Source of the DNA: an uncultured Oscillospiraceae bacterium
Lineage (GTDB): Bacteria > Bacillota > Clostridia > Oscillospirales > Ruminococcaceae
Assembly: GCA_902489475.1 (NCBI GenBank)
Contig: CABUAH010000001.1
Span: 25,919-89,918, forward strand
Direction of reading: 5' to 3'
DNA: 64,000 nt
Shown here: positions 7,755-21,495 of the stretch, in pieces
Layout of the letters: the number at the start of each line of letters is the position of its first letter
How positions within the stretch are numbered: the stretch's first letter is position 1
Translations under genes and position numbers: made by a program
Notes under the pieces: model-generated
The model's database searches: none
What the model saw: only the letters and a program-made list of their open reading frames with translations
Told to the model about the DNA's origin: nothing

Positions 7755-9095
7755 ATGTTATTGTTGGAAAAAGTATTTGAAATTATTAACAATAGCGGAT
7801 TGGAATATTGCATTCAGAATAAGTATGAAATGATGCCGGAAATGATTCCTTCGGACATCGATATGATGTACAAAGATGCAAGCGAGGAATTCCTAGATAA
7901 CTTGGTGAAGAGAATTGCAGATGAGACAGGATTGATAGTTACTCAAAAAATCTGTCAGGGGTATTTTGAGTATACGTATATCATCTCTTATCCGTGTCCA
8001 AAGGAATATTTTCAGTTGCAGTTAGACTTTTACAGAGCCATTTCTAGAAGAGGATATCTGAATATCATGTCTGCTGAGGAAATGTTGGAGAGTAGAAGAT
8101 TTTATAAATGCTTCTATATTCCAGATTCTTATGTTGAGTTCAAATATATGTGGATTCGGCGAACGATTAAACATGATATGAACATGGAACACATTGCGAT
8201 TGCGAAAGAGCTATATTCAAAAAGTCCGAACGAATATATTGAACGGCTGAAAAAGGACTTGGGTGCGGAAGTTGCTGAACTTGTACTTAAAATCATGGAT
8301 AAGAATGATGTTGAAATCTTTAACCGAAATTTCGAAGTATTTAACCGCTCAGCAAAGAGTGTATCTCGAAAAAATGCTACGCTGCCTGTTAGATTGAGAT
8401 ATGCGGCTTTTATGTTTGGAACAGTAATTCCTAAACGAGTATTCCACAAATGCGGTTTGTCTGTGGCATTTATTGCACCCGATGGTGCGGGCAAAAGTAC
8501 AGTAATTGAGCGTATAAAAGAAACGGTCAGTGGAAGCTTCTATGGAGTTAGTCTCTACTATATGCGTCCGCATTTGTTTAAAAATCTGGGACATTATAAT
8601 AAGTTGAATCCGACAGAGGAAGCTACATCAAATAACGACCCGCACGCTGTCATTTGTGATGGCCCATTCAAGTCGGCATTACGGTTCTTTTTTTACAATT
8701 TCGATTTCCTGTTAGGCACCATACTGAAAGTTAATCGTAAGAAAATTGCAAAGCAGTTAGTAATATTTGATCGATACTATTACGATTACTTTGCAGATAT
8801 GAAGAGATATAAGTATTTGCTTCCAAGCTGGTTCCCAGCGGCATTTGAATGGATGATACCCAAGCCTGATATGGTCTTCGTGCTAGAGGGTTCTCCGAAA
8901 GTATTGTATGCGAGAAAAAAAGAGCTCTCTATGGAGGAAATTGAAAAGCAGTGTACTGCGTTTCGCCAGTTGGCACAGAAAGAAAAGAATTTCTATTTAA
9001 TTGATGTCAACCGTGATGTCGATGTAATTGTTGATGAAATTACTACATTAATTTTGAAAGAAACAGAAAGAAAAACTAAAAAGATAATGAAATAG
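7755..9095 (+). CDS. Hypothetical two-domain protein: N-terminal nucleotidyltransferase-like region plus C-terminal P-loop (dTMP-kinase-like) domain
   Basis: The ORF is long and clean. IPSDIDMMY in the N-terminal part resembles an NTase acidic motif. A Walker A motif IAPDGAGKST is followed by FDRYYYDYF. GGAGG at 7739-7743 lies upstream. The function is not recognisable. Confidence 0.55.
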   Translation: MLLLEKVFEIINNSGLEYCIQNKYEMMPEMIPSDIDMMYKDASEEFLDNLVKRIADETGLIVTQKICQGYFEYTYIISYPCPKEYFQLQLDFYRAISRRGYLNIMSAEEMLESRRFYKCFYIPDSYVEFKYMWIRRTIKHDMNMEHIAIAKELYSKSPNEYIERLKKDLGAEVAELVLKIMDKNDVEIFNRNFEVFNRSAKSVSRKNATLPVRLRYAAFMFGTVIPKRVFHKCGLSVAFIAPDGAGKSTVIERIKETVSGSFYGVSLYYMRPHLFKNLGHYNKLNPTEEATSNNDPHAVICDGPFKSALRFFFYNFDFLLGTILKVNRKKIAKQLVIFDRYYYDYFADMKRYKYLLPSWFPAAFEWMIPKPDMVFVLEGSPKVLYARKKELSMEEIEKQCTAFRQLAQKEKNFYLIDVNRDVDVIVDEITTLILKETERKTKKIMK

Positions 9096-10398: not shown

Positions 10399-10426
10399 TG
10401 GCTATGAGAAGGATTGTATAAAAATA

Positions 10427-10947
10427 TTGTTAATGTTGTATTATCTATTTTTTAGAAAGCTTTCTTATCAACCGATTCCCGGCTATAGACCGGGAAACAT
10501 ACTCAGAAGTTGGTGCATCTGGAAGCTATTTAAAAGGTGTGGCGAAAATATTGTGGTTAAGAGTATGGTATATTTTGGTACAGGAGAAAATATAGAAATT
10601 GGTGACTATTCACAGATTGGAATTAACCACAAAGTTGAGGAAGACCTAGTGTTGGTTACTCACGTGCTTATGGTACCGGATGTTATCATATATTCGTCCA
10701 GTCATGAATATAAAGGTCCTGATACTCCTGTTATGTTTCAGGGGGGGAGATAAAGAGAAGACCGGTTGTCATAGGGAACGATGTTTGGATTGGAACCAGA
10801 GTCATTATTATACTTGGAGTGCATATTGGTGACCACGTAATCATTGGAGCAAATTCTGTTGTTACACATGATATTCCAGGCTATTCCATTGATGCTGGTA
10901 GTCCGGCAAGGGTCGTTCGGAAGCGAAAAGAAGAAGTAAGGAGTAAA
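10427..10947 (+). pseudogene. Left-handed beta-helix (hexapeptide repeat) O-acetyltransferase, frameshifted at a G7 tract
   Basis: The first frame reads ...GENIEIGDYSQIG...SSSHEYKGPDTPVMFQGGR and stops at 10751. The protein continues in another frame as RRPVVIGNDVWIGTRVIIILGVHIGDHVIIGANSVVTHDIPGYSIDAGSPARVV. The break is exactly at ggggggg, 10741-10747. Confidence 0.8.
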
Positions 10948-10950
10948 TGT

Positions 10951-12087
10951 ATGAAGATATTGGCACTATATTTACCGCAGTTTCATGCCATTCCTGAAAA
11001 TGATGAGTGGTGGGGCAAAGGCTTTACGGAGTGGGTGAATGTAAAAAAAGCAAAGCCGCTGTTTGAAGGGCATTATCAACCAAGAACTCCCTTGAATCAG
11101 AATTACTACAATCTGCTGGATAATTCAGTTAAGAAGTGGCAAATCGATCTGGCGAAGAAGTATGGAATCTATGGATTCTGTGTCTATCACTATTGGTTTT
11201 CTGGTAAGAAGTTGCTTGAAAAGCCTATGGAGCAATATCTGGAAGACAAGTCTCTGGATTTTCCGTTTTGCTTTTGCTGGGCTAATGAGCATTGGAGCAA
11301 TGCTTGGGTCTCAGGGGAAAACAAGATCCTGATGGCTCAGAATTTTGAAGATAGAGAGGATTGGGACAATCATTTCTATTATATGCTGCCCTTTTTTATG
11401 GATGAACGGTACATCAAGGAAGATGGAAAGCCCCTGTATGTAATCTATTTACCCAATATCATTGGACCCTTGAATGAGATGCTGGACAGATGGCAGGAAC
11501 TAGCAAAACAGAATGGCCTGCCGGGAATAAAGTTTATTTCACAGAGTCCCTTCTGGCATTTGGATAAAAGCGTGGACAAGAGCAGGTTTGATTATGCTAT
11601 CGAGTTCCAGCCTTCCATGATTAACCATCTGGAAAAAGGAACAAAGAGTGCAATGTGGATTCGTATGAAAGTCAAACTGTCTCTGTTCCTTCAGAACAAA
11701 TTCCACATTTATATCAAGCTTCCTAAAAAAGAAGTTCATAAAAGTAGCTACGATGAAAAGTGGAAGCAGGTTCTGGCAATTCACCCACAGGACGATACCT
11801 GTTTTCCTGGCGCATTTGTTGATTGGGACAATACTCCACGGAAAGCAGAACGTGGAGATGTATATATTGGGGCTTCTCCGGAAAAGTTTAAACACTATTT
11901 TGACCTGCAGGTAAAGCATGTAAAGAAAGAGTATAAAACTGACTGGCTCGTCATGTTTGCCTGGAACGAGTGGGCTGAAGGTGGTATCCTTGAGCCTACA
12001 GAACGATATGGTACTGCATATCTTGAAGCAATTCGGGATGTGCTGATGGACAATGGAGAGTTTCCTACATGGGATGAGGGCAAGTGA
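10951..12087 (+). CDS. WbsX-like protein (glycoside hydrolase family 99-like domain)
   Basis: MKILALYLPQFHAIPENDEWWGKGFTEWVNV...YHYWFSGKKLLEKP...CWANEHWSN...WNEWAEGG matches the WbsX family (PF14307) signature. AGGAG lies 8 nt upstream of the ATG at 10951. Confidence 0.75.
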   Translation: MKILALYLPQFHAIPENDEWWGKGFTEWVNVKKAKPLFEGHYQPRTPLNQNYYNLLDNSVKKWQIDLAKKYGIYGFCVYHYWFSGKKLLEKPMEQYLEDKSLDFPFCFCWANEHWSNAWVSGENKILMAQNFEDREDWDNHFYYMLPFFMDERYIKEDGKPLYVIYLPNIIGPLNEMLDRWQELAKQNGLPGIKFISQSPFWHLDKSVDKSRFDYAIEFQPSMINHLEKGTKSAMWIRMKVKLSLFLQNKFHIYIKLPKKEVHKSSYDEKWKQVLAIHPQDDTCFPGAFVDWDNTPRKAERGDVYIGASPEKFKHYFDLQVKHVKKEYKTDWLVMFAWNEWAEGGILEPTERYGTAYLEAIRDVLMDNGEFPTWDEGK

Positions 12088-13166: not shown

Positions 13167-14450
13167 ATGCAATTAGCGAATAAAAAGTATATCTTATCCA
13201 TTTCTGGGGGGAATATACTTACTTCACTGGGTGGAACTGAGAAGGTTATTATAACTCATCAGAAAATGTTTAATGCTTCTGGGATATCTTACGTCTATGT
13301 TTACCCAGTGTCGAAGAAAGTTGCGGGATTTAGGCTGTACCACTATTGGGGTGTCGTGATAGACGGAGAACCGGTGGGCATCTTCAAAACAAAGGGTCTG
13401 TTATCTTTCCTGAGTTGTTCCGAGAACGGCGATTATTTGCTGATGAAGGTACATATTCATCATTTTCGAGAGATCATGCTGGATCAGCTTTCAGAAATTC
13501 TGGATTACATCCGAGAAGCAGATGTTTTTTGCTATCTGCACGATTACTATCTGGTGTGTGATTCGTATACACTCAAGGATTCTTCGGATAAGTATTGCGG
13601 TTTTGGTGTGCCATCCCAGGAGAAATGCGGGAACTGTGCCTTTTGGACGCTCCATGAGCATGCAGAGAAAAGAAGAAAATTTATACTGAAGTACCTCGAT
13701 CGGATGGTATTCATCGCACCTTCGGAATGTCCTGCGGAGATTATCGGAGATTCCATTCCGGAGATCAGAAATCGGATTCGTGTTATTTACCACCAAAAGG
13801 CATTTGGCGAATACAAGGAAAATCGAGAGCCCTCTCCAGGAGAACCGTTAAAAGTCGCTTTTTGTGGACTTCCTATTCGAGCCAAGGGATGGCAAGATTT
13901 TCTATATGCAGCTGAGATTGCTACGCACAGGGGGGCACAGGTTCGATTCTATCATCTGGGAAAAAAAGACAAAGAATATGCGAACATTATCAATATCCCC
14001 GTTGGTTTCCAAAATGGGAGTAAAACGATGACTGAAATGTTACGCAAGTTGAATGTCGATTGTGTTATCCTGTGGTCTGGGTGGCCTGAAACCTACAGCT
14101 ATGTGTATTATGAGTGCTTTGCAGCAAACACGTTTGTACTAACGAACAATCTGAGCGGAAATATAGCAAAACAGGTGATCAAAAATGGCAATGGAATTGT
14201 ATTGTCGGGAAGGGAAGAACTGGCTGATCTGATATCTGATTCGGACAAGCTAAGAAATCTAGTTGAAGATTACAGGGGGCGTAGAGAATATGGTCCCCTA
14301 GAACTGATGGAAAATGATGAGATCATTGTATTGTCAATGAATGATGGAGTAACAATAGAACCCGTGATCTTCAAAGAACTAGGCATCAAAAGAAAACTTG
14401 TGGAGAAAGCCTACCTAGAGCATTTGAAAAACAAGTGTCGCGGTAGGTGA
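13167..14450 (+). CDS. Hypothetical protein, possibly a GT-B-like glycosyltransferase with a Cys-rich insert
   Basis: A clean 427-codon ORF. The Cys cluster is CYLHDYYLVCDS...YCGFGVPSQEKCGNCAFW. The C-terminal half (KVAFCGLPIRAKGWQDF...) is vaguely GT1-like. The family is not firmly recognised. Confidence 0.4.
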   Translation: MQLANKKYILSISGGNILTSLGGTEKVIITHQKMFNASGISYVYVYPVSKKVAGFRLYHYWGVVIDGEPVGIFKTKGLLSFLSCSENGDYLLMKVHIHHFREIMLDQLSEILDYIREADVFCYLHDYYLVCDSYTLKDSSDKYCGFGVPSQEKCGNCAFWTLHEHAEKRRKFILKYLDRMVFIAPSECPAEIIGDSIPEIRNRIRVIYHQKAFGEYKENREPSPGEPLKVAFCGLPIRAKGWQDFLYAAEIATHRGAQVRFYHLGKKDKEYANIINIPVGFQNGSKTMTEMLRKLNVDCVILWSGWPETYSYVYYECFAANTFVLTNNLSGNIAKQVIKNGNGIVLSGREELADLISDSDKLRNLVEDYRGRREYGPLELMENDEIIVLSMNDGVTIEPVIFKELGIKRKLVEKAYLEHLKNKCRGR

Positions 14451-17059: not shown

Positions 17060-18475
17060 ATGAAAGCAGATTACAAAAAACTAGGTAAGAACACGCTTTT
17101 ATTTGCATTAGGGAGTTTTACGCAAAAGGCAATGGCATTTTTGCTTGTGCCATTTTATACATATGTGCTGTCTACATCGGACTATGGAACGGCAGATTTG
17201 ATTATTATCATAAGCAGCATGATCTGGCCCTTGTTTACTTTATTGATTGACGATGCAGTGCTTCGCTTTTCCCTGGACAAAAATGAAAAGAAAGAACAGA
17301 TCATCAGTATTGGGTGCTATATTAATCTGTTCGGTTTCTTAATTATGCTGTGTCTGTCTCCCCTTGTATTACTAGTAAATGCATTAAAAGAATACTATCT
17401 GTTCTTTGTGTTGTACTACTTTACGTATTCTGTAAACAGTTTTTTCTCATATGCACTAAGGGGATTGGAGAAAACAAAACTGTTCTCGTTGACAGGTATT
17501 ATCTCCAGTTTCATTGCCATTTCCTGTAACCTGTTGTTCTTACTGGTGTTCAAGTGGGGGGTTCGTGGGTATCTGCTATCCTTTATTCTCTCCTATCTGG
17601 TTACTGGAGTCATACAGTTTGCTTTGGGAAAATTTGGGAAATATATTATTCCTCTCTCTGCTATCGATAAAGGCAAGCGGCGGGAAATGATTCGTTATGC
17701 GCTTCCGCTGATTCCGAATTCTATCAGCTGGTGGATCAGCAATTCATCTGATAAGCTGATTGTATCTTATGTGTGTGGTATTGCGGCAAACGGTATTTAC
17801 TCCGTAAGTTACAAAATACCATCACTAATTACGACATGTTCGAGTATTTTCTCCAACGCATGGCAGATATCTGCGGTAGATGAATTTGGCAGCGAGGAGA
17901 ATAGAAGGTATTTCAGTGATGTCTACTATAAATATTCCACGGTCTGTATGTTTCTGGTTACTGTGGTTATAGCGTTTAATAAGATGGTTTGCAGAGTTGC
18001 GTTTTCCAATGATTTTTATCAAGCGTGGAAATATGTGCCAATATTGCTTTACGCAGTAACATTTCAGATTATGTCTGGATTTTTAGGAACGATTTACACT
18101 ACATCCAAAAAGACAAAAATGGTCTTTGTATCTACAGTGATTGCAGCGTCGTCAAATATTATTCTCAACATCATATTTATTCCGTTATATGGAGGCGTTG
18201 GTGCAGCTTGGGCTACCTGTATCAGCTACATGATTGTGTGGATGATCCGAGTGGTTGATTCTCAGAAGATTATGAAGCTTTCAGTAAACTGGGGAAAAGA
18301 AATCGTTTGTAATGCGATTCTTTTAATTCAGGTTTGCATCGCCTGCACAGATGATAGTAAAGAATTCTGGGTTTCACTCATTCTAATGCTGGCGATTTTA
18401 TTCATCAAGAGAGATTTCATAAGGGACTTTACAATTCTCTTGAAACACATGATGCGCAAGATAGGGAAGAAGTGA
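17060..18475 (+). CDS. wzx: Oligosaccharide flippase (MOP/Wzx family)
   Basis: A hydrophobic protein of about 470 aa with many predicted membrane spans. N-terminal KNTLLFALGSFTQKAMAFLLVPFYT and later ALPLIPNSISWW are typical of polysaccharide-biosynthesis flippases. Confidence 0.75.
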   Translation: MKADYKKLGKNTLLFALGSFTQKAMAFLLVPFYTYVLSTSDYGTADLIIIISSMIWPLFTLLIDDAVLRFSLDKNEKKEQIISIGCYINLFGFLIMLCLSPLVLLVNALKEYYLFFVLYYFTYSVNSFFSYALRGLEKTKLFSLTGIISSFIAISCNLLFLLVFKWGVRGYLLSFILSYLVTGVIQFALGKFGKYIIPLSAIDKGKRREMIRYALPLIPNSISWWISNSSDKLIVSYVCGIAANGIYSVSYKIPSLITTCSSIFSNAWQISAVDEFGSEENRRYFSDVYYKYSTVCMFLVTVVIAFNKMVCRVAFSNDFYQAWKYVPILLYAVTFQIMSGFLGTIYTTSKKTKMVFVSTVIAASSNIILNIIFIPLYGGVGAAWATCISYMIVWMIRVVDSQKIMKLSVNWGKEIVCNAILLIQVCIACTDDSKEFWVSLILMLAILFIKRDFIRDFTILLKHMMRKIGKK

Positions 18476-20565: not shown

Positions 20566-21495
20566 AGAGTATAGGTGCGCTAAAAACTATTTGTTCCATT
20601 TTTAATAGCGTGTATTCATATGCCTCCGAAGATTATCGGGGGGATATTGGATAGCATTGTGTAGAACTAGTGTTTCGATTTTTTTGATGATGTCCGGATA
20701 TTTCTATAATCAAGAGAGTGCAATAAAGCAAATACGGAAGGTTGCAATCCTATTTATTGAAGCAAACCTGATATATTGTGTGTGGAGTTATTTCTACGGT
20801 GTATTGTCAGATACTATTTCAATCATTAGTTTCGATAAGTTGCTTAAATATATTTTTTGAACGAATCACCGTTCTCGGGTCATCTATGGTATCTTGGAGC
20901 AGTTCCCTGTACTTAAATATTTATTTACTTACTCGAAAAATGAAAACTACACGAATAATCTACATGACAATACCTTTCTGTTGCTTTAGACATAGTATTT
21001 GGAAAGTATTCTATGCTGTTATTCAGGAGGAAATTTGACTATTTCCTTGTTCGGAATTGGCTGTTTGTTGGTATGTTTTTCTTTTCAATCGGCATGTTGA
21101 TGAACGAAAAGAAGCTACGAATTGGTTGGTGGGGAATACCAGTATTTACACTGACAACCATGCTTGAACGATTTCTGCTTGTAAGAAATGTGATTAATGC
21201 TGCAAGAGATCAGTATATCAGTACAATATTCCTGCCAATATCAGTGTTGAGCTTTGCGCTTGAATATAAAGGAAGTATAAACAACTGGTTAGCCCAAATT
21301 GGAAATCGGCTATCTGCATGGATCTATATCATACACCCATTTTTTGTAACATGCCTTACTTTTATCACAAGTAAAATCGGCATTCAGAAAGGTGGGGTAA
21401 GTTGGAGCTGTTTTTGTATTTGTGATATTTGTTGTATTTGTATATATTGCCGCAAAGATGATAAAAAAGTGCAATTGCGATATTTGAAAAGATGA
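20566..21495 (+). pseudogene. Acyltransferase family 3 (OafA-like O-acyltransferase) gene broken by several frameshifts
   Basis: Family-typical pieces lie in different frames: GALKTICSIF / FLIACIHMPP / RTSVSIFLMMSGYFY / FLNESPFSGHLWYLGA / LVRNWLFVGMFFFSIGMLM / SAWIYIIHPFF. At least four frame changes are needed to join them. Confidence 0.65.

What the first reader, a model, noticed from the sequence alone, without database searches (positions are those of the whole stretch)
10427..12087. G7 tract frameshifts a hexapeptide-repeat O-acetyltransferase; G8 would restore it, and the restored frame runs without a stop into the WbsX-like gene
The acetyltransferase reads normally up to ...PVMFQGG and then hits a stop at 10751. 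Its conserved continuation (RRPVVIGNDVWIGTRVII...PARVV) sits in a different frame. The break coincides exactly with ggggggg at 10741-10747. Adding one G gives cag ggg ggg gag ata aag aga aga ccg gtt..., a seamless Q-G-G-E-I-K-R-R-P-V-V-I-G-N-D-V-W junction. Homopolymer slippage in glycan-modifying genes is a classical phase-variation mechanism, so this could be an ON/OFF switch for O-acetylation of the polysaccharide. In addition, no stop codon separates the acetyltransferase frame from the WbsX-like ORF. That ORF has its own AGGAG and an ATG at 10951. In the ON state the cell would therefore make either an acetyltransferase-WbsX fusion or tightly coupled products.
Basis: partly seen in the sequence, partly recalled or inferred. 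Interest (0 to 1): 0.7.

Follow-up and report, generated by a model that had tools for sequence, protein, structure and literature searches.

The report
Decaying phase-variable capsule acetyltransferase gene
A sugar O-acetyltransferase gene in a gut bacterium's capsule locus is broken at a run of seven Gs that acts as a length-variable on/off tract in sister strains, but this copy carries further lesions and is most likely a dying relic rather than a working switch.

Summary
G7 lies at 10741-10747, the reading frame breaks there with a stop at 10751-10753, and G8 opens a 553-codon frame running into the WbsX-like gene.

The tract is a hypermutable site in this gene family. Intact sister alleles carry G8 at the same codons (QGG). 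Sister loci from other metagenomes carry G7 or G9 by DNA, and G6 or G11 as inferred from protein sequences. One G7 locus and one G8 locus differ by that single G over 5,355 bp.

The window's own lineage shows only G7, in the window and in all five loci read (L001-L005); at least four of these are from samples other than the window's. The 0-of-about-10-contigs count for G8 is weak evidence, because ON alleles are also rare in sisters.

The window's copy has other damage:
- Codon 6 of the native frame is TAA, and most members also have a 1-nt deletion there.
- The stop codon is lost (TAA to AAA) and a base is inserted. Together these create the in-frame link to WbsX.
- Four residues conserved in 95-100% of homologues are replaced, two of them Gly to Val.
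- The branch N:S ratio is 24:13, against 8:16 for the closest sister.

No natural acetyltransferase-WbsX fusion was found. Verdict: a former contingency gene stuck OFF and decaying. It is a known kind of mechanism in a less-studied group, gut Clostridia.

The parts
10404..10421 (+). Remnant of the native start: ATG AGA AGG ATT GTA TAA (MRRIV*). It is homologous to sister MRRIEQ..., with CAA changed to TAA at codon 6 (10419-10421).
   Evidence: Alignments with four sister alleles and with L002.
10420..10424 (+). A5 run. Sisters and L002 (same lineage) have A6. The 1-nt deletion puts the native ATG out of frame with the gene body.
10427..10753 (+). N-terminal fragment of the LbH O-acetyltransferase (108 aa from TTG 10427; ATG at 10433). 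It contains the putative catalytic His (SSSHEY) and ends QGGR then TAA.
   Evidence: It is 100% identical to database proteins P0011 and P0121, and no longer version exists. LacA alignment.
10741..10747 (+). G7 homopolymer covering the two GGG Gly codons of the QGG loop. G8 is the in-frame length.
10748..10750 (+). AGA, three extra bases relative to the closest intact allele (L090: G8-TAAAGAG). The net difference from L090 is +2 nt.
10747..10944 (+). C-terminal part of the acetyltransferase in the other frame (EIKRRPVVIGNDVWIG...SPARVVRKRKEEVRS). It holds the hexapeptide coils that by homology bind acetyl-CoA.
10945..10950 (+). AAA TGT, the former stop and spacer. Sisters read TAA TT here. A T>A change and one inserted base remove the stop and put the acetyltransferase frame in frame with WbsX.
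10939..10943 (+). AGGAG Shine-Dalgarno sequence of the WbsX-like gene, lying inside the acetyltransferase tail.
10951..12087 (+). Intact WbsX-like gene (378 aa, PF14307) under purifying selection.
   Evidence: branch N:S 10:35.

Best explanation
The feature is a LacA/Maa/WcaF-type left-handed beta-helix sugar O-acetyltransferase gene. It sits inside a Wzx/Wzy-type polysaccharide locus of an uncultured gut Oscillospiraceae-like spore-former.

In this gene family the Gly-Gly loop after the catalytic His is encoded by a G8 run that slips during replication. G8 gives the full 176-183 aa enzyme. G7 gives QGG then a stop. G9 or G6 gives a missense tail. G11 gives an in-frame extra Gly. In sister strains this works as an ON/OFF contingency tract for O-acetylation of the polysaccharide.

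The window's lineage is caught at G7 and has stayed there long enough to accumulate unrelated damage:
- a nonsense codon six codons after the native ATG;
- a further 1-nt deletion in an A-run;
- loss of its stop codon;
- replacements of beta-helix turn Gly and Pro residues.

It is therefore a pseudogene, the relic of a phase-variable gene. WbsX is translated from its own AGGAG/ATG, and the apparent fusion frame is an accident of decay.

What is shown: the tract polymorphism, the lesions and the relaxed constraint. What is inferred: that sister alleles switch reversibly within clones, that the substrate is the locus's polysaccharide, and that the window copy has no function.
For: Tract behaviour in the family:
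- Intact sister alleles have G8.
- A G7 locus (L093) and a G8 locus (L100) show 0 mismatches and 1 gap over 5,355 bp.
- The G7 protein P0142 is listed in 175 index blocks, on contigs with 16-44x coverage. The G8 protein P0145 is on 13 contigs. G9, G6 and G11 forms also occur.
- GGG makes up only 9.1% of 937 Gly codons in the window, yet GGG-GGG is kept in five alleles that differ by dS 0.45-1.8.
- Distant homologues (39-59% identity, 80 loci) have no G run at this site.

Decay of the window copy:
- All six sequences of the window lineage read at the DNA level (the window and L001-L005) are G7. No full-length or fusion protein at about 100% identity exists.
- The native frame has TAA at codon 6 in both sub-lineages, and an A6 to A5 deletion in most.
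- The stop is lost by TAA to AAA plus one inserted base.
- The window branch has N:S = 24:13, against 8:16 on the L090 branch (Fisher p = 0.02). The neighbouring WbsX shows 10:35 against 6:27.
- P to S, G to V, G to V and P to L replacements fall at columns conserved in 95-100% of 106 homologues.

Independent losses of the same gene elsewhere:
- C. symbiosum-type loci keep only a 157-nt relic.
- L119-type alleles are broken by an A6 to A5 deletion.
Against: - Only about 10 contigs of the window allele exist. ON alleles are a minority in sisters too (roughly 1 in 10), so 0 of 10 is weak evidence for a locked state.
- The body of the gene has no internal stop once G8 is supplied.
- Translation could re-initiate at ATG 10433, 12 nt after the TAA.
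- dN/dS on the branch is about 0.5, not 1.
- The count of deviations at conserved columns (4 of 36) is within the family range (mean 1.5, maximum 6).
- Reversible switching within a clone was not observed, because no reads were available.
Confidence: 0.65

Rival explanations
1. Active switch. The window allele still toggles G7 (OFF) to G8 (ON). ON cells start at ATG 10433, or re-initiate after the MRRIV mini-ORF, and make an acetyltransferase-WbsX fusion or a processed product that O-acetylates the polysaccharide.
For: - G8 opens a 553-codon frame with no internal stop.
- The same tract varies in sister lineages.
- OFF dominates in sisters as well, so the absence of ON in about 10 contigs is not decisive.
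- The catalytic His is retained.
Against: - The native frame has a nonsense codon and there is no Shine-Dalgarno sequence before 10433.
- The stop is lost only in this lineage.
- No natural Hexapep-WbsX fusion was seen among the top 120 acetyltransferase relatives, the best 150 WbsX relatives, or 10 candidates with N-terminal extensions.
- Gly to Val changes fall at two beta-helix turn positions that are conserved in 95-100% of homologues, and the branch N:S ratio is raised.
Confidence: 0.2
2. The frame break did not arise by tract slippage. An allele whose eighth G had mutated to A (G7-ATA, in frame, as in L117: QGGIERRP) then suffered a GA dinucleotide duplication at the tract's 3' edge (G7-A[GA]TAAAG). 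On this view G7 is not an OFF length. This concerns only the origin of the break and is compatible with the pseudogene verdict.
For: - The window is +2 nt relative to L090 (CA-G8-TAAAGAG against CA-G7-AGATAAAGAG).
- L117 shows that a G7-ATA in-frame allele exists.
- The G8-restored window protein is one residue longer than all 17 aligned homologues.
Against: An equally parsimonious path exists: an in-frame AGA insertion plus a -1 slippage. No ancestor sequence is available to decide between them.
Confidence: 0.3
3. Recoding. The G7 allele is decoded to full length by -1 ribosomal slippage on G GGG GGG, or by RNA-polymerase stuttering on the G run, so G7 is a low-expression state rather than OFF.
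For: - G_GGG_GGG formally fits the X_XXY_YYZ pattern.
- In sister G7 alleles a stop (TAG) follows the tract directly, a context known to favour P-site slippage (my own knowledge).
- G7 is the commonest state in sisters.
Against: - There is no stable downstream structure (z-scores +0.04 to +1.5).
- Intact relatives encode the protein in one frame with G8.
- The prevalence of G7 is expected from length-dependent slippage rates alone.
- The window copy has additional lesions.
Confidence: 0.03
4. Homopolymer sequencing or assembly error: the true sequence is G8.
For: Homopolymers are error-prone on some platforms.
Against: - G7 is found in the window and in all five loci read, from ENA and Logan. 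L002-L005 are from other samples, and L002 differs from the window by 14 SNPs.
- The truncated protein is recorded on 10 contigs.
Confidence: 0.01

Closest known systems
NeuO, the phage-borne phase-variable polysialic-acid O-acetyltransferase of E. coli K1 (PDB 3JQY; PMC13001214)
   Same: It belongs to the same hexapeptide-repeat superfamily (E 2e-11 to sister P0156). It modifies a capsule by O-acetylation. It is switched ON and OFF by repeat-number changes within the coding sequence.
   Different: NeuO uses heptanucleotide repeats at the 5' end (my own knowledge), not a poly-G run in the loop after the catalytic His. It is carried by a prophage in Proteobacteria. The copy studied here is decayed.
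Poly-G/C contingency genes in Campylobacter jejuni capsule and LOS modification loci (review PMC8355987), and Neisseria meningitidis capsule O-acetyltransferases OatC and OatWY (PDB 2WLC)
   Same: Intragenic G/C homopolymers of about 8-11 nt toggle glycan-modifying enzymes by slipped-strand mispairing. OatWY is also a hexapeptide acetyltransferase (E 7e-8).
   Different: Those organisms carry many such tracts genome-wide. Here the host is a low-GC gut Clostridia commensal with a single G run of 7 or more in 64 kb. Reversible switching within a clone has not been shown.
LacA/Maa/WcaF/WbbJ family of sugar O-acetyltransferases (PDB 1KQA, 3SRT)
   Same: These are the best sequence matches. LacA gives E 1e-22 over residues 38-174 and includes the catalytic His and the C-terminal coils. 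NCBIfam hits are to LacA, WcaF and WbbJ, all below their cut-offs.
   Different: No equivalog model is reached and the substrate is unknown. The N-terminal roughly 35 residues (LYYLFFRKLPYQPIPGY) are specific to this clade.
Streptococcus pneumoniae capsule O-acetyltransferase genes inactivated by repeat or indel mutations (wciZ in 15B/15C, wcjE in 11A/11E; my own knowledge, not checked here)
   Same: A Gram-positive capsule acetyltransferase is recurrently switched off by small indels, giving serologically distinct variants. Irreversible loss also occurs.
   Different: Those genes belong to different acetyltransferase families and use different repeat types.

Membership tests
Hexapeptide-repeat (LbH) sugar O-acetyltransferase, LacA/Maa/WcaF-like | Hexapeptide repeats detected above the Pfam gathering score | tested here: met
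   PF00132 at 41.6 bits (cut-off 27) on the G8-restored sequence.
Hexapeptide-repeat (LbH) sugar O-acetyltransferase, LacA/Maa/WcaF-like | Homology to solved members across the catalytic His and the C-terminal acetyl-CoA-binding coils | tested here: met
   Sister P0156 against LacA 1KQA gives E 1e-22 over residues 38-174. The window keeps SSSHEY.
Hexapeptide-repeat (LbH) sugar O-acetyltransferase, LacA/Maa/WcaF-like | One uninterrupted ORF with its own start and stop | tested here: not met
   There is a frame break at G7, TAA at native codon 6, and the stop codon is lost.
Hexapeptide-repeat (LbH) sugar O-acetyltransferase, LacA/Maa/WcaF-like | Acetyl-CoA-dependent O-acetylation of a sugar | not testable with these tools
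   Needs a biochemical assay.
SSR-mediated phase-variable (contingency) gene | Homopolymer of at least 7 nt inside the coding sequence whose length sets the reading frame | tested here: met
   G7 at 10741-10747. G8, G5 and G11 are open; G6 and G9 are closed.
SSR-mediated phase-variable (contingency) gene | Tract-length polymorphism among otherwise identical sequences | tested here: inconclusive
   Met in sister lineages: G7, G8 and G9 occur, and L093 and L100 differ only by one G in 5,355 bp. Not met in the window lineage: the window and all five loci read are G7, and there is no ON protein in the database.
SSR-mediated phase-variable (contingency) gene | The rest of the gene is intact and under purifying selection, so that ON is functional | tested here: not met
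   The window branch has N:S 24:13 against 8:16 (p = 0.02). There are four replacements at columns conserved in 95-100% of homologues, a nonsense codon and a lost stop.
SSR-mediated phase-variable (contingency) gene | Reversible, high-frequency switching within a clonal population | not testable with these tools
   No reads or cultures were available.
Natural acetyltransferase-WbsX fusion protein | Homologues encode Hexapep and WbsX domains in one polypeptide | tested here: not met
   The top 120 acetyltransferase relatives are all 250 aa or shorter. In the best 150 WbsX relatives the best-scoring match starts at query residue 37 or later, mostly 58-72, i.e. at or near the WbsX part. Ten candidates with N-terminal extensions carry other domains or none. 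Sisters have TAA plus a 2-nt spacer.
Programmed -1 ribosomal frameshift site | Slippery heptamer plus a conserved downstream stimulatory structure, with the shifted arrangement conserved in relatives | tested here: not met
   The heptamer is formally present. No structure is found (z-scores +0.04 to +1.5). Intact relatives are in a single frame.

The most novel reading that the evidence does not exclude
The poly-G tract is a working contingency switch shared by related capsule loci found in the window's Oscillospiraceae-like host and, for the flanking genes, in Lachnospiraceae. In the window lineage a single G7 to G8 slip would switch on O-acetylation and also convert WbsX into a bifunctional acetyltransferase-WbsX fusion. 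One slippage event would then remodel two glycan enzymes.
Probability: 0.1. Interest if true: 0.55.

Novelty: new member of a known kind. Interest (0 to 1): 0.3.

Why it matters
Homopolymer-driven ON/OFF switching of capsule O-acetylation is textbook in Neisseria, Campylobacter and E. coli K1. In three full-text searches of the paper library I found nothing that describes it for gut Clostridia commensals.

The sister-locus data are a clean metagenomic signature that such a contingency tract exists in these bacteria: identical 5-kb loci that differ only in G7, G8 or G9. They also show that the acetyltransferase is repeatedly turned off or lost.

For the window itself the practical message concerns annotation. 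The two ORF fragments are a pseudogene, and the fusion frame should not be annotated as a protein.

Tried and rejected
- Genome-contig scan with the family alignment. It was useful only to show that distant homologues lack the tract.
- JGI metagenome pattern scan. It gave six stretches, one of them spurious (L113). It produced no census but did reveal the G7-ATA in-frame allele L117.
- Fusion search with window:10747-12084. No Hexapep-WbsX fusions were found.
- RNA folding downstream of the tract. No structure was found, so programmed frameshifting was set aside.
- Deviation count at conserved columns. The window is not an outlier by number (4, against mean 1.5 and maximum 6), only by the kind of change, so I do not lean on the count.
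- The apparent split in L111 is caused by scaffold Ns, not a frameshift.
- Literature searches found nothing on poly-G switching in gut Clostridia capsule genes.
- Sequencing error was rejected because independent assemblies agree.

Full report
OBSERVATION

- GGGGGGG occupies 10741-10747.
- ORF 10427-10753 (TTG start; first ATG at 10433) reads ...SSSHEYKGPDTPVMFQGGR and stops at TAA 10751-10753.
- The conserved continuation EIKRRPVVIGNDVWIGTRVIIILGVHIGDHVIIGANSVVTHDIPGYSIDAGSPARVV lies in the frame of ORF 10819-12087.
- Replacing G7 with G8 (or G5 or G11) gives one open frame of 553 codons ending at 12087. G6 and G9 do not.
- The restored N-terminal protein matches Pfam Hexapep (E 8e-11). The downstream ORF, starting at ATG 10951 behind AGGAG 10939-10943, matches Glyco_tran_WbsX (E 8e-127).

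A lone G7 in 64 kb is not improbable in itself. Dinucleotide shuffles give a mean of 1.4. What matters is where the run sits and how it behaves in relatives.

NOT AN ARTEFACT

The exact WbsX protein is found on nine public contigs, and five loci were read (L001-L005). All five carry G7 with identical flanks.
- L001 is 100% identical to the window over 13.1 kb and is probably the same sample.
- L002 differs by 14 substitutions and one indel.
- L003-L005 differ by one substitution each.

The truncated protein is recorded on 10 contigs in total (P0011 and P0121).

WHAT THE GENE IS

The closest full-length relatives are stand-alone proteins of 176-183 aa at 75-80% identity.
- The nearest solved structures are LacA (1KQA, E 1e-22) and maltose O-acetyltransferases. 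The alignment covers the catalytic His (SSSH here) and the C-terminal coils.
- NCBIfam gives sub-threshold hits to LacA, WcaF and WbbJ.

The gene sits in a Wzx/Wzy-type polysaccharide locus. The order is GT4 glycosyltransferases, a 446-aa protein with a weak thymidylate-kinase-like match, GT1, the acetyltransferase, WbsX, a pyruvyl transferase, GT61, Wzy and a flippase.

The rest of the window is chromosomal: RNase J, DnaB, FtsH, SpoIIE, GlgA/B and NadB. DnaB is 87% identical to a 'Ruminococcus sp.' MAG protein and about 69% identical to Oscillospiraceae MAG proteins. The host is therefore an uncultured gut spore-former of that group.

THE TRACT IN RELATIVES

DNA of sister alleles shows that the intact genes read CA-G8-TAGAGAGAAGACC (QGGVERRP: L006, L007, L100-L106) or CA-G8-TAAAGAGAAGACC (QGGVKRRP: L090-L092). 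The same alleles also occur with other tract lengths:
- G7 gives QGG followed directly by TAG (115-117 aa products). Examples are L093-L099. P0142 is listed in 175 index blocks, on contigs with 16-44x coverage.
- G9 occurs in L008 and L009.
- Proteins imply G6 (P0125) and G11 (P0153 and P0155, in frame with one extra Gly).

L093 (G7) and L100 (G8) have no mismatch and a single gap, the G, over 5,355 bp.

Two observations argue that the run is maintained rather than accidental. GGG is the rarest Gly codon in the window (9.1% of 937), yet GGG-GGG is retained in five alleles that differ by dS 0.45-1.8. Eighty more distant homologues (39-59% identity) have no G run at this site.

This is the expected signature of a slippage-prone contingency tract, with G8 as ON. 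Reversible switching within a clone remains inferred, because no reads were available.

THE WINDOW'S OWN COPY

Relative to the closest intact allele (L090) the window reads CA-G7-AGA-TAAAGAG, a net +2 nt. Two two-step histories fit equally well:
- an in-frame AGA insertion followed by a -1 slip; or
- a G to A change at the eighth G followed by a GA duplication. An in-frame G7-ATA allele (L117, QGGIERRP) does exist.

Either way G8 restores the frame, giving QGGEIKRRP. That is one residue longer than all 17 aligned homologues.

No ON version of this allele exists in the protein collection. A 175-aa or 553-aa protein at about 100% identity would have topped the list. The only 100% match is the truncated fragment. 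This is weak evidence on its own: ON alleles are roughly a tenth of sister contigs, so 0 of about 10 is unremarkable.

The stronger evidence is the other damage.
1. The native start (ATG 10404, homologous to MRRIEQK... of sisters) now reads MRRIV then TAA. Codon 6 is TAA in both sub-lineages (window and L002), where sisters have CAA. The window, L001, L003 and L004 also have A5 where L002 and all sisters have A6. The gene body can start only at TTG 10427 or ATG 10433, and neither has a Shine-Dalgarno sequence.
2. Sisters end AGGAGT-TAA-TT-ATG. The window reads AGGAGT-AAA-TGT-ATG. A T>A change destroys the stop, and one inserted base puts the acetyltransferase frame in register with WbsX.
3. 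With three outgroups, the window branch carries 24 non-synonymous and 13 synonymous changes, against 8 and 16 on the L090 branch (Fisher p = 0.02). WbsX next door shows 10:35 against 6:27.
4. Among 106 full-length homologues, the window alone has P to S, G to V, G to V and P to L at columns that are 96%, 100%, 95% and 98% conserved. The two glycines are the turn residues of consecutive hexads. The number of deviations (4 of 36) is not extreme. It is the kind of change that is notable.

THE GENE IS EXPENDABLE ELSEWHERE TOO
- C. symbiosum-type loci, including isolate assembly GCA_002814175.1, keep the flanking GT and WbsX genes. Only a 157-nt relic remains between them, stitched from three acetyltransferase fragments.
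- L119-type alleles (at least 12 contigs) have an eroded tract (CAA-G6-ATA) and are broken by an A6 to A5 deletion in LFKKCG.

THE FUSION IDEA
- All of the top 120 acetyltransferase relatives are 250 aa or shorter.
- An exhaustive HMMER search with the acetyltransferase tail plus WbsX found 42,337 relatives. In the best 150, the best-scoring match begins at query residue 37 or later, mostly at 58-72, which is at or near the WbsX part.
- Ten candidates with N-terminal extensions carry Laminin_G_3, methyltransferase or Gly_transf_sug domains, or nothing, and never Hexapep.

The continuous frame is best read as a by-product of two lineage-specific mutations in a gene no longer under selection.

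RECODING

G_GGG_GGG formally fits a slippery heptamer. No stable downstream structure exists in the window, L093 or L090 (z-scores +1.48, +0.86 and +0.04). Intact relatives encode the protein in a single frame. I give this reading about 3%.

CONCLUSION

The poly-G run is a real contingency tract in this acetyltransferase family, with G8 as ON. The window's copy is most likely a former phase-variable gene stuck at OFF and decaying (confidence about 0.65). A still-functional switch is the main rival (about 0.2).

Compared with known systems, it works like NeuO, OatWY and the Campylobacter poly-G capsule-modification genes (PMC13001214, PMC8355987; NeuO and OatWY are distant superfamily relatives). 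It fails the membership features that require an intact, selectable ON state.

It is a new member of a known kind, in a group (gut Clostridia) where three full-text searches found no report of this kind of switching.

Noticed in passing
window 13206-13211, 13930-13935, 17556-17561, 20638-20643: All four G6 runs of the 64-kb window lie on the + strand within 13.2-20.6 kb, in or just past the polysaccharide locus, which is transcribed on that strand. There are none in the remaining roughly 43 kb. Two are in the 427-aa unknown protein, one is in the flippase, and one lies about 80 nt past the last locus ORF. They could be further slippage-prone sites.
   Followed up: partly
window 11043-11049; L096 about 3143: The A7 run near the 5' end of WbsX is A6 in one sister metagenome contig (L096), which splits WbsX into 47-aa and 331-aa ORFs. 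This is a single observation and could be real or an error.
   Followed up: partly
window 10420-10424 against L002 about 5470: The A-run just after the native start is A5 in the window and A6 in L002, which is the same lineage. This is a second homopolymer polymorphism inside the same pseudogene.
   Followed up: yes
L107-L111 (e.g. L108 2844-3000, GCA_002814175.1 PDDG01000002.1): [Clostridium] symbiosum-type loci carry a WbsX in the same 90%-identity cluster as the window's, in the same gene order. The acetyltransferase is reduced to a 157-nt relic made of three joined fragments. The window's host is Oscillospiraceae-like by its DnaB, so this locus segment seems to be shared across Clostridia families.
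   Followed up: partly
L118-L122 (e.g. L119 2340-2881): Another allele, on at least 12 contigs, has the poly-G eroded to CAA-G6-ATA (in frame). It is broken instead by an A6 to A5 deletion in the LFKKCG codons.
   Followed up: yes
window 7755-9095 and 13167-14450: Two conserved locus proteins have no clear family. One is a 446-aa protein with only a weak C-terminal thymidylate-kinase-like match. The other is a 427-aa protein with no Pfam or NCBIfam hit.
   Followed up: no
L016 3510-3520 (Ruminococcus sp. MAG, 51% homologue): A G11 run sits at the 3' end of a distant homologue of the acetyltransferase (...RNAGGGVLKM...). This is a different site from the QGG loop and may be another independent homopolymer in this enzyme family.
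   Followed up: no
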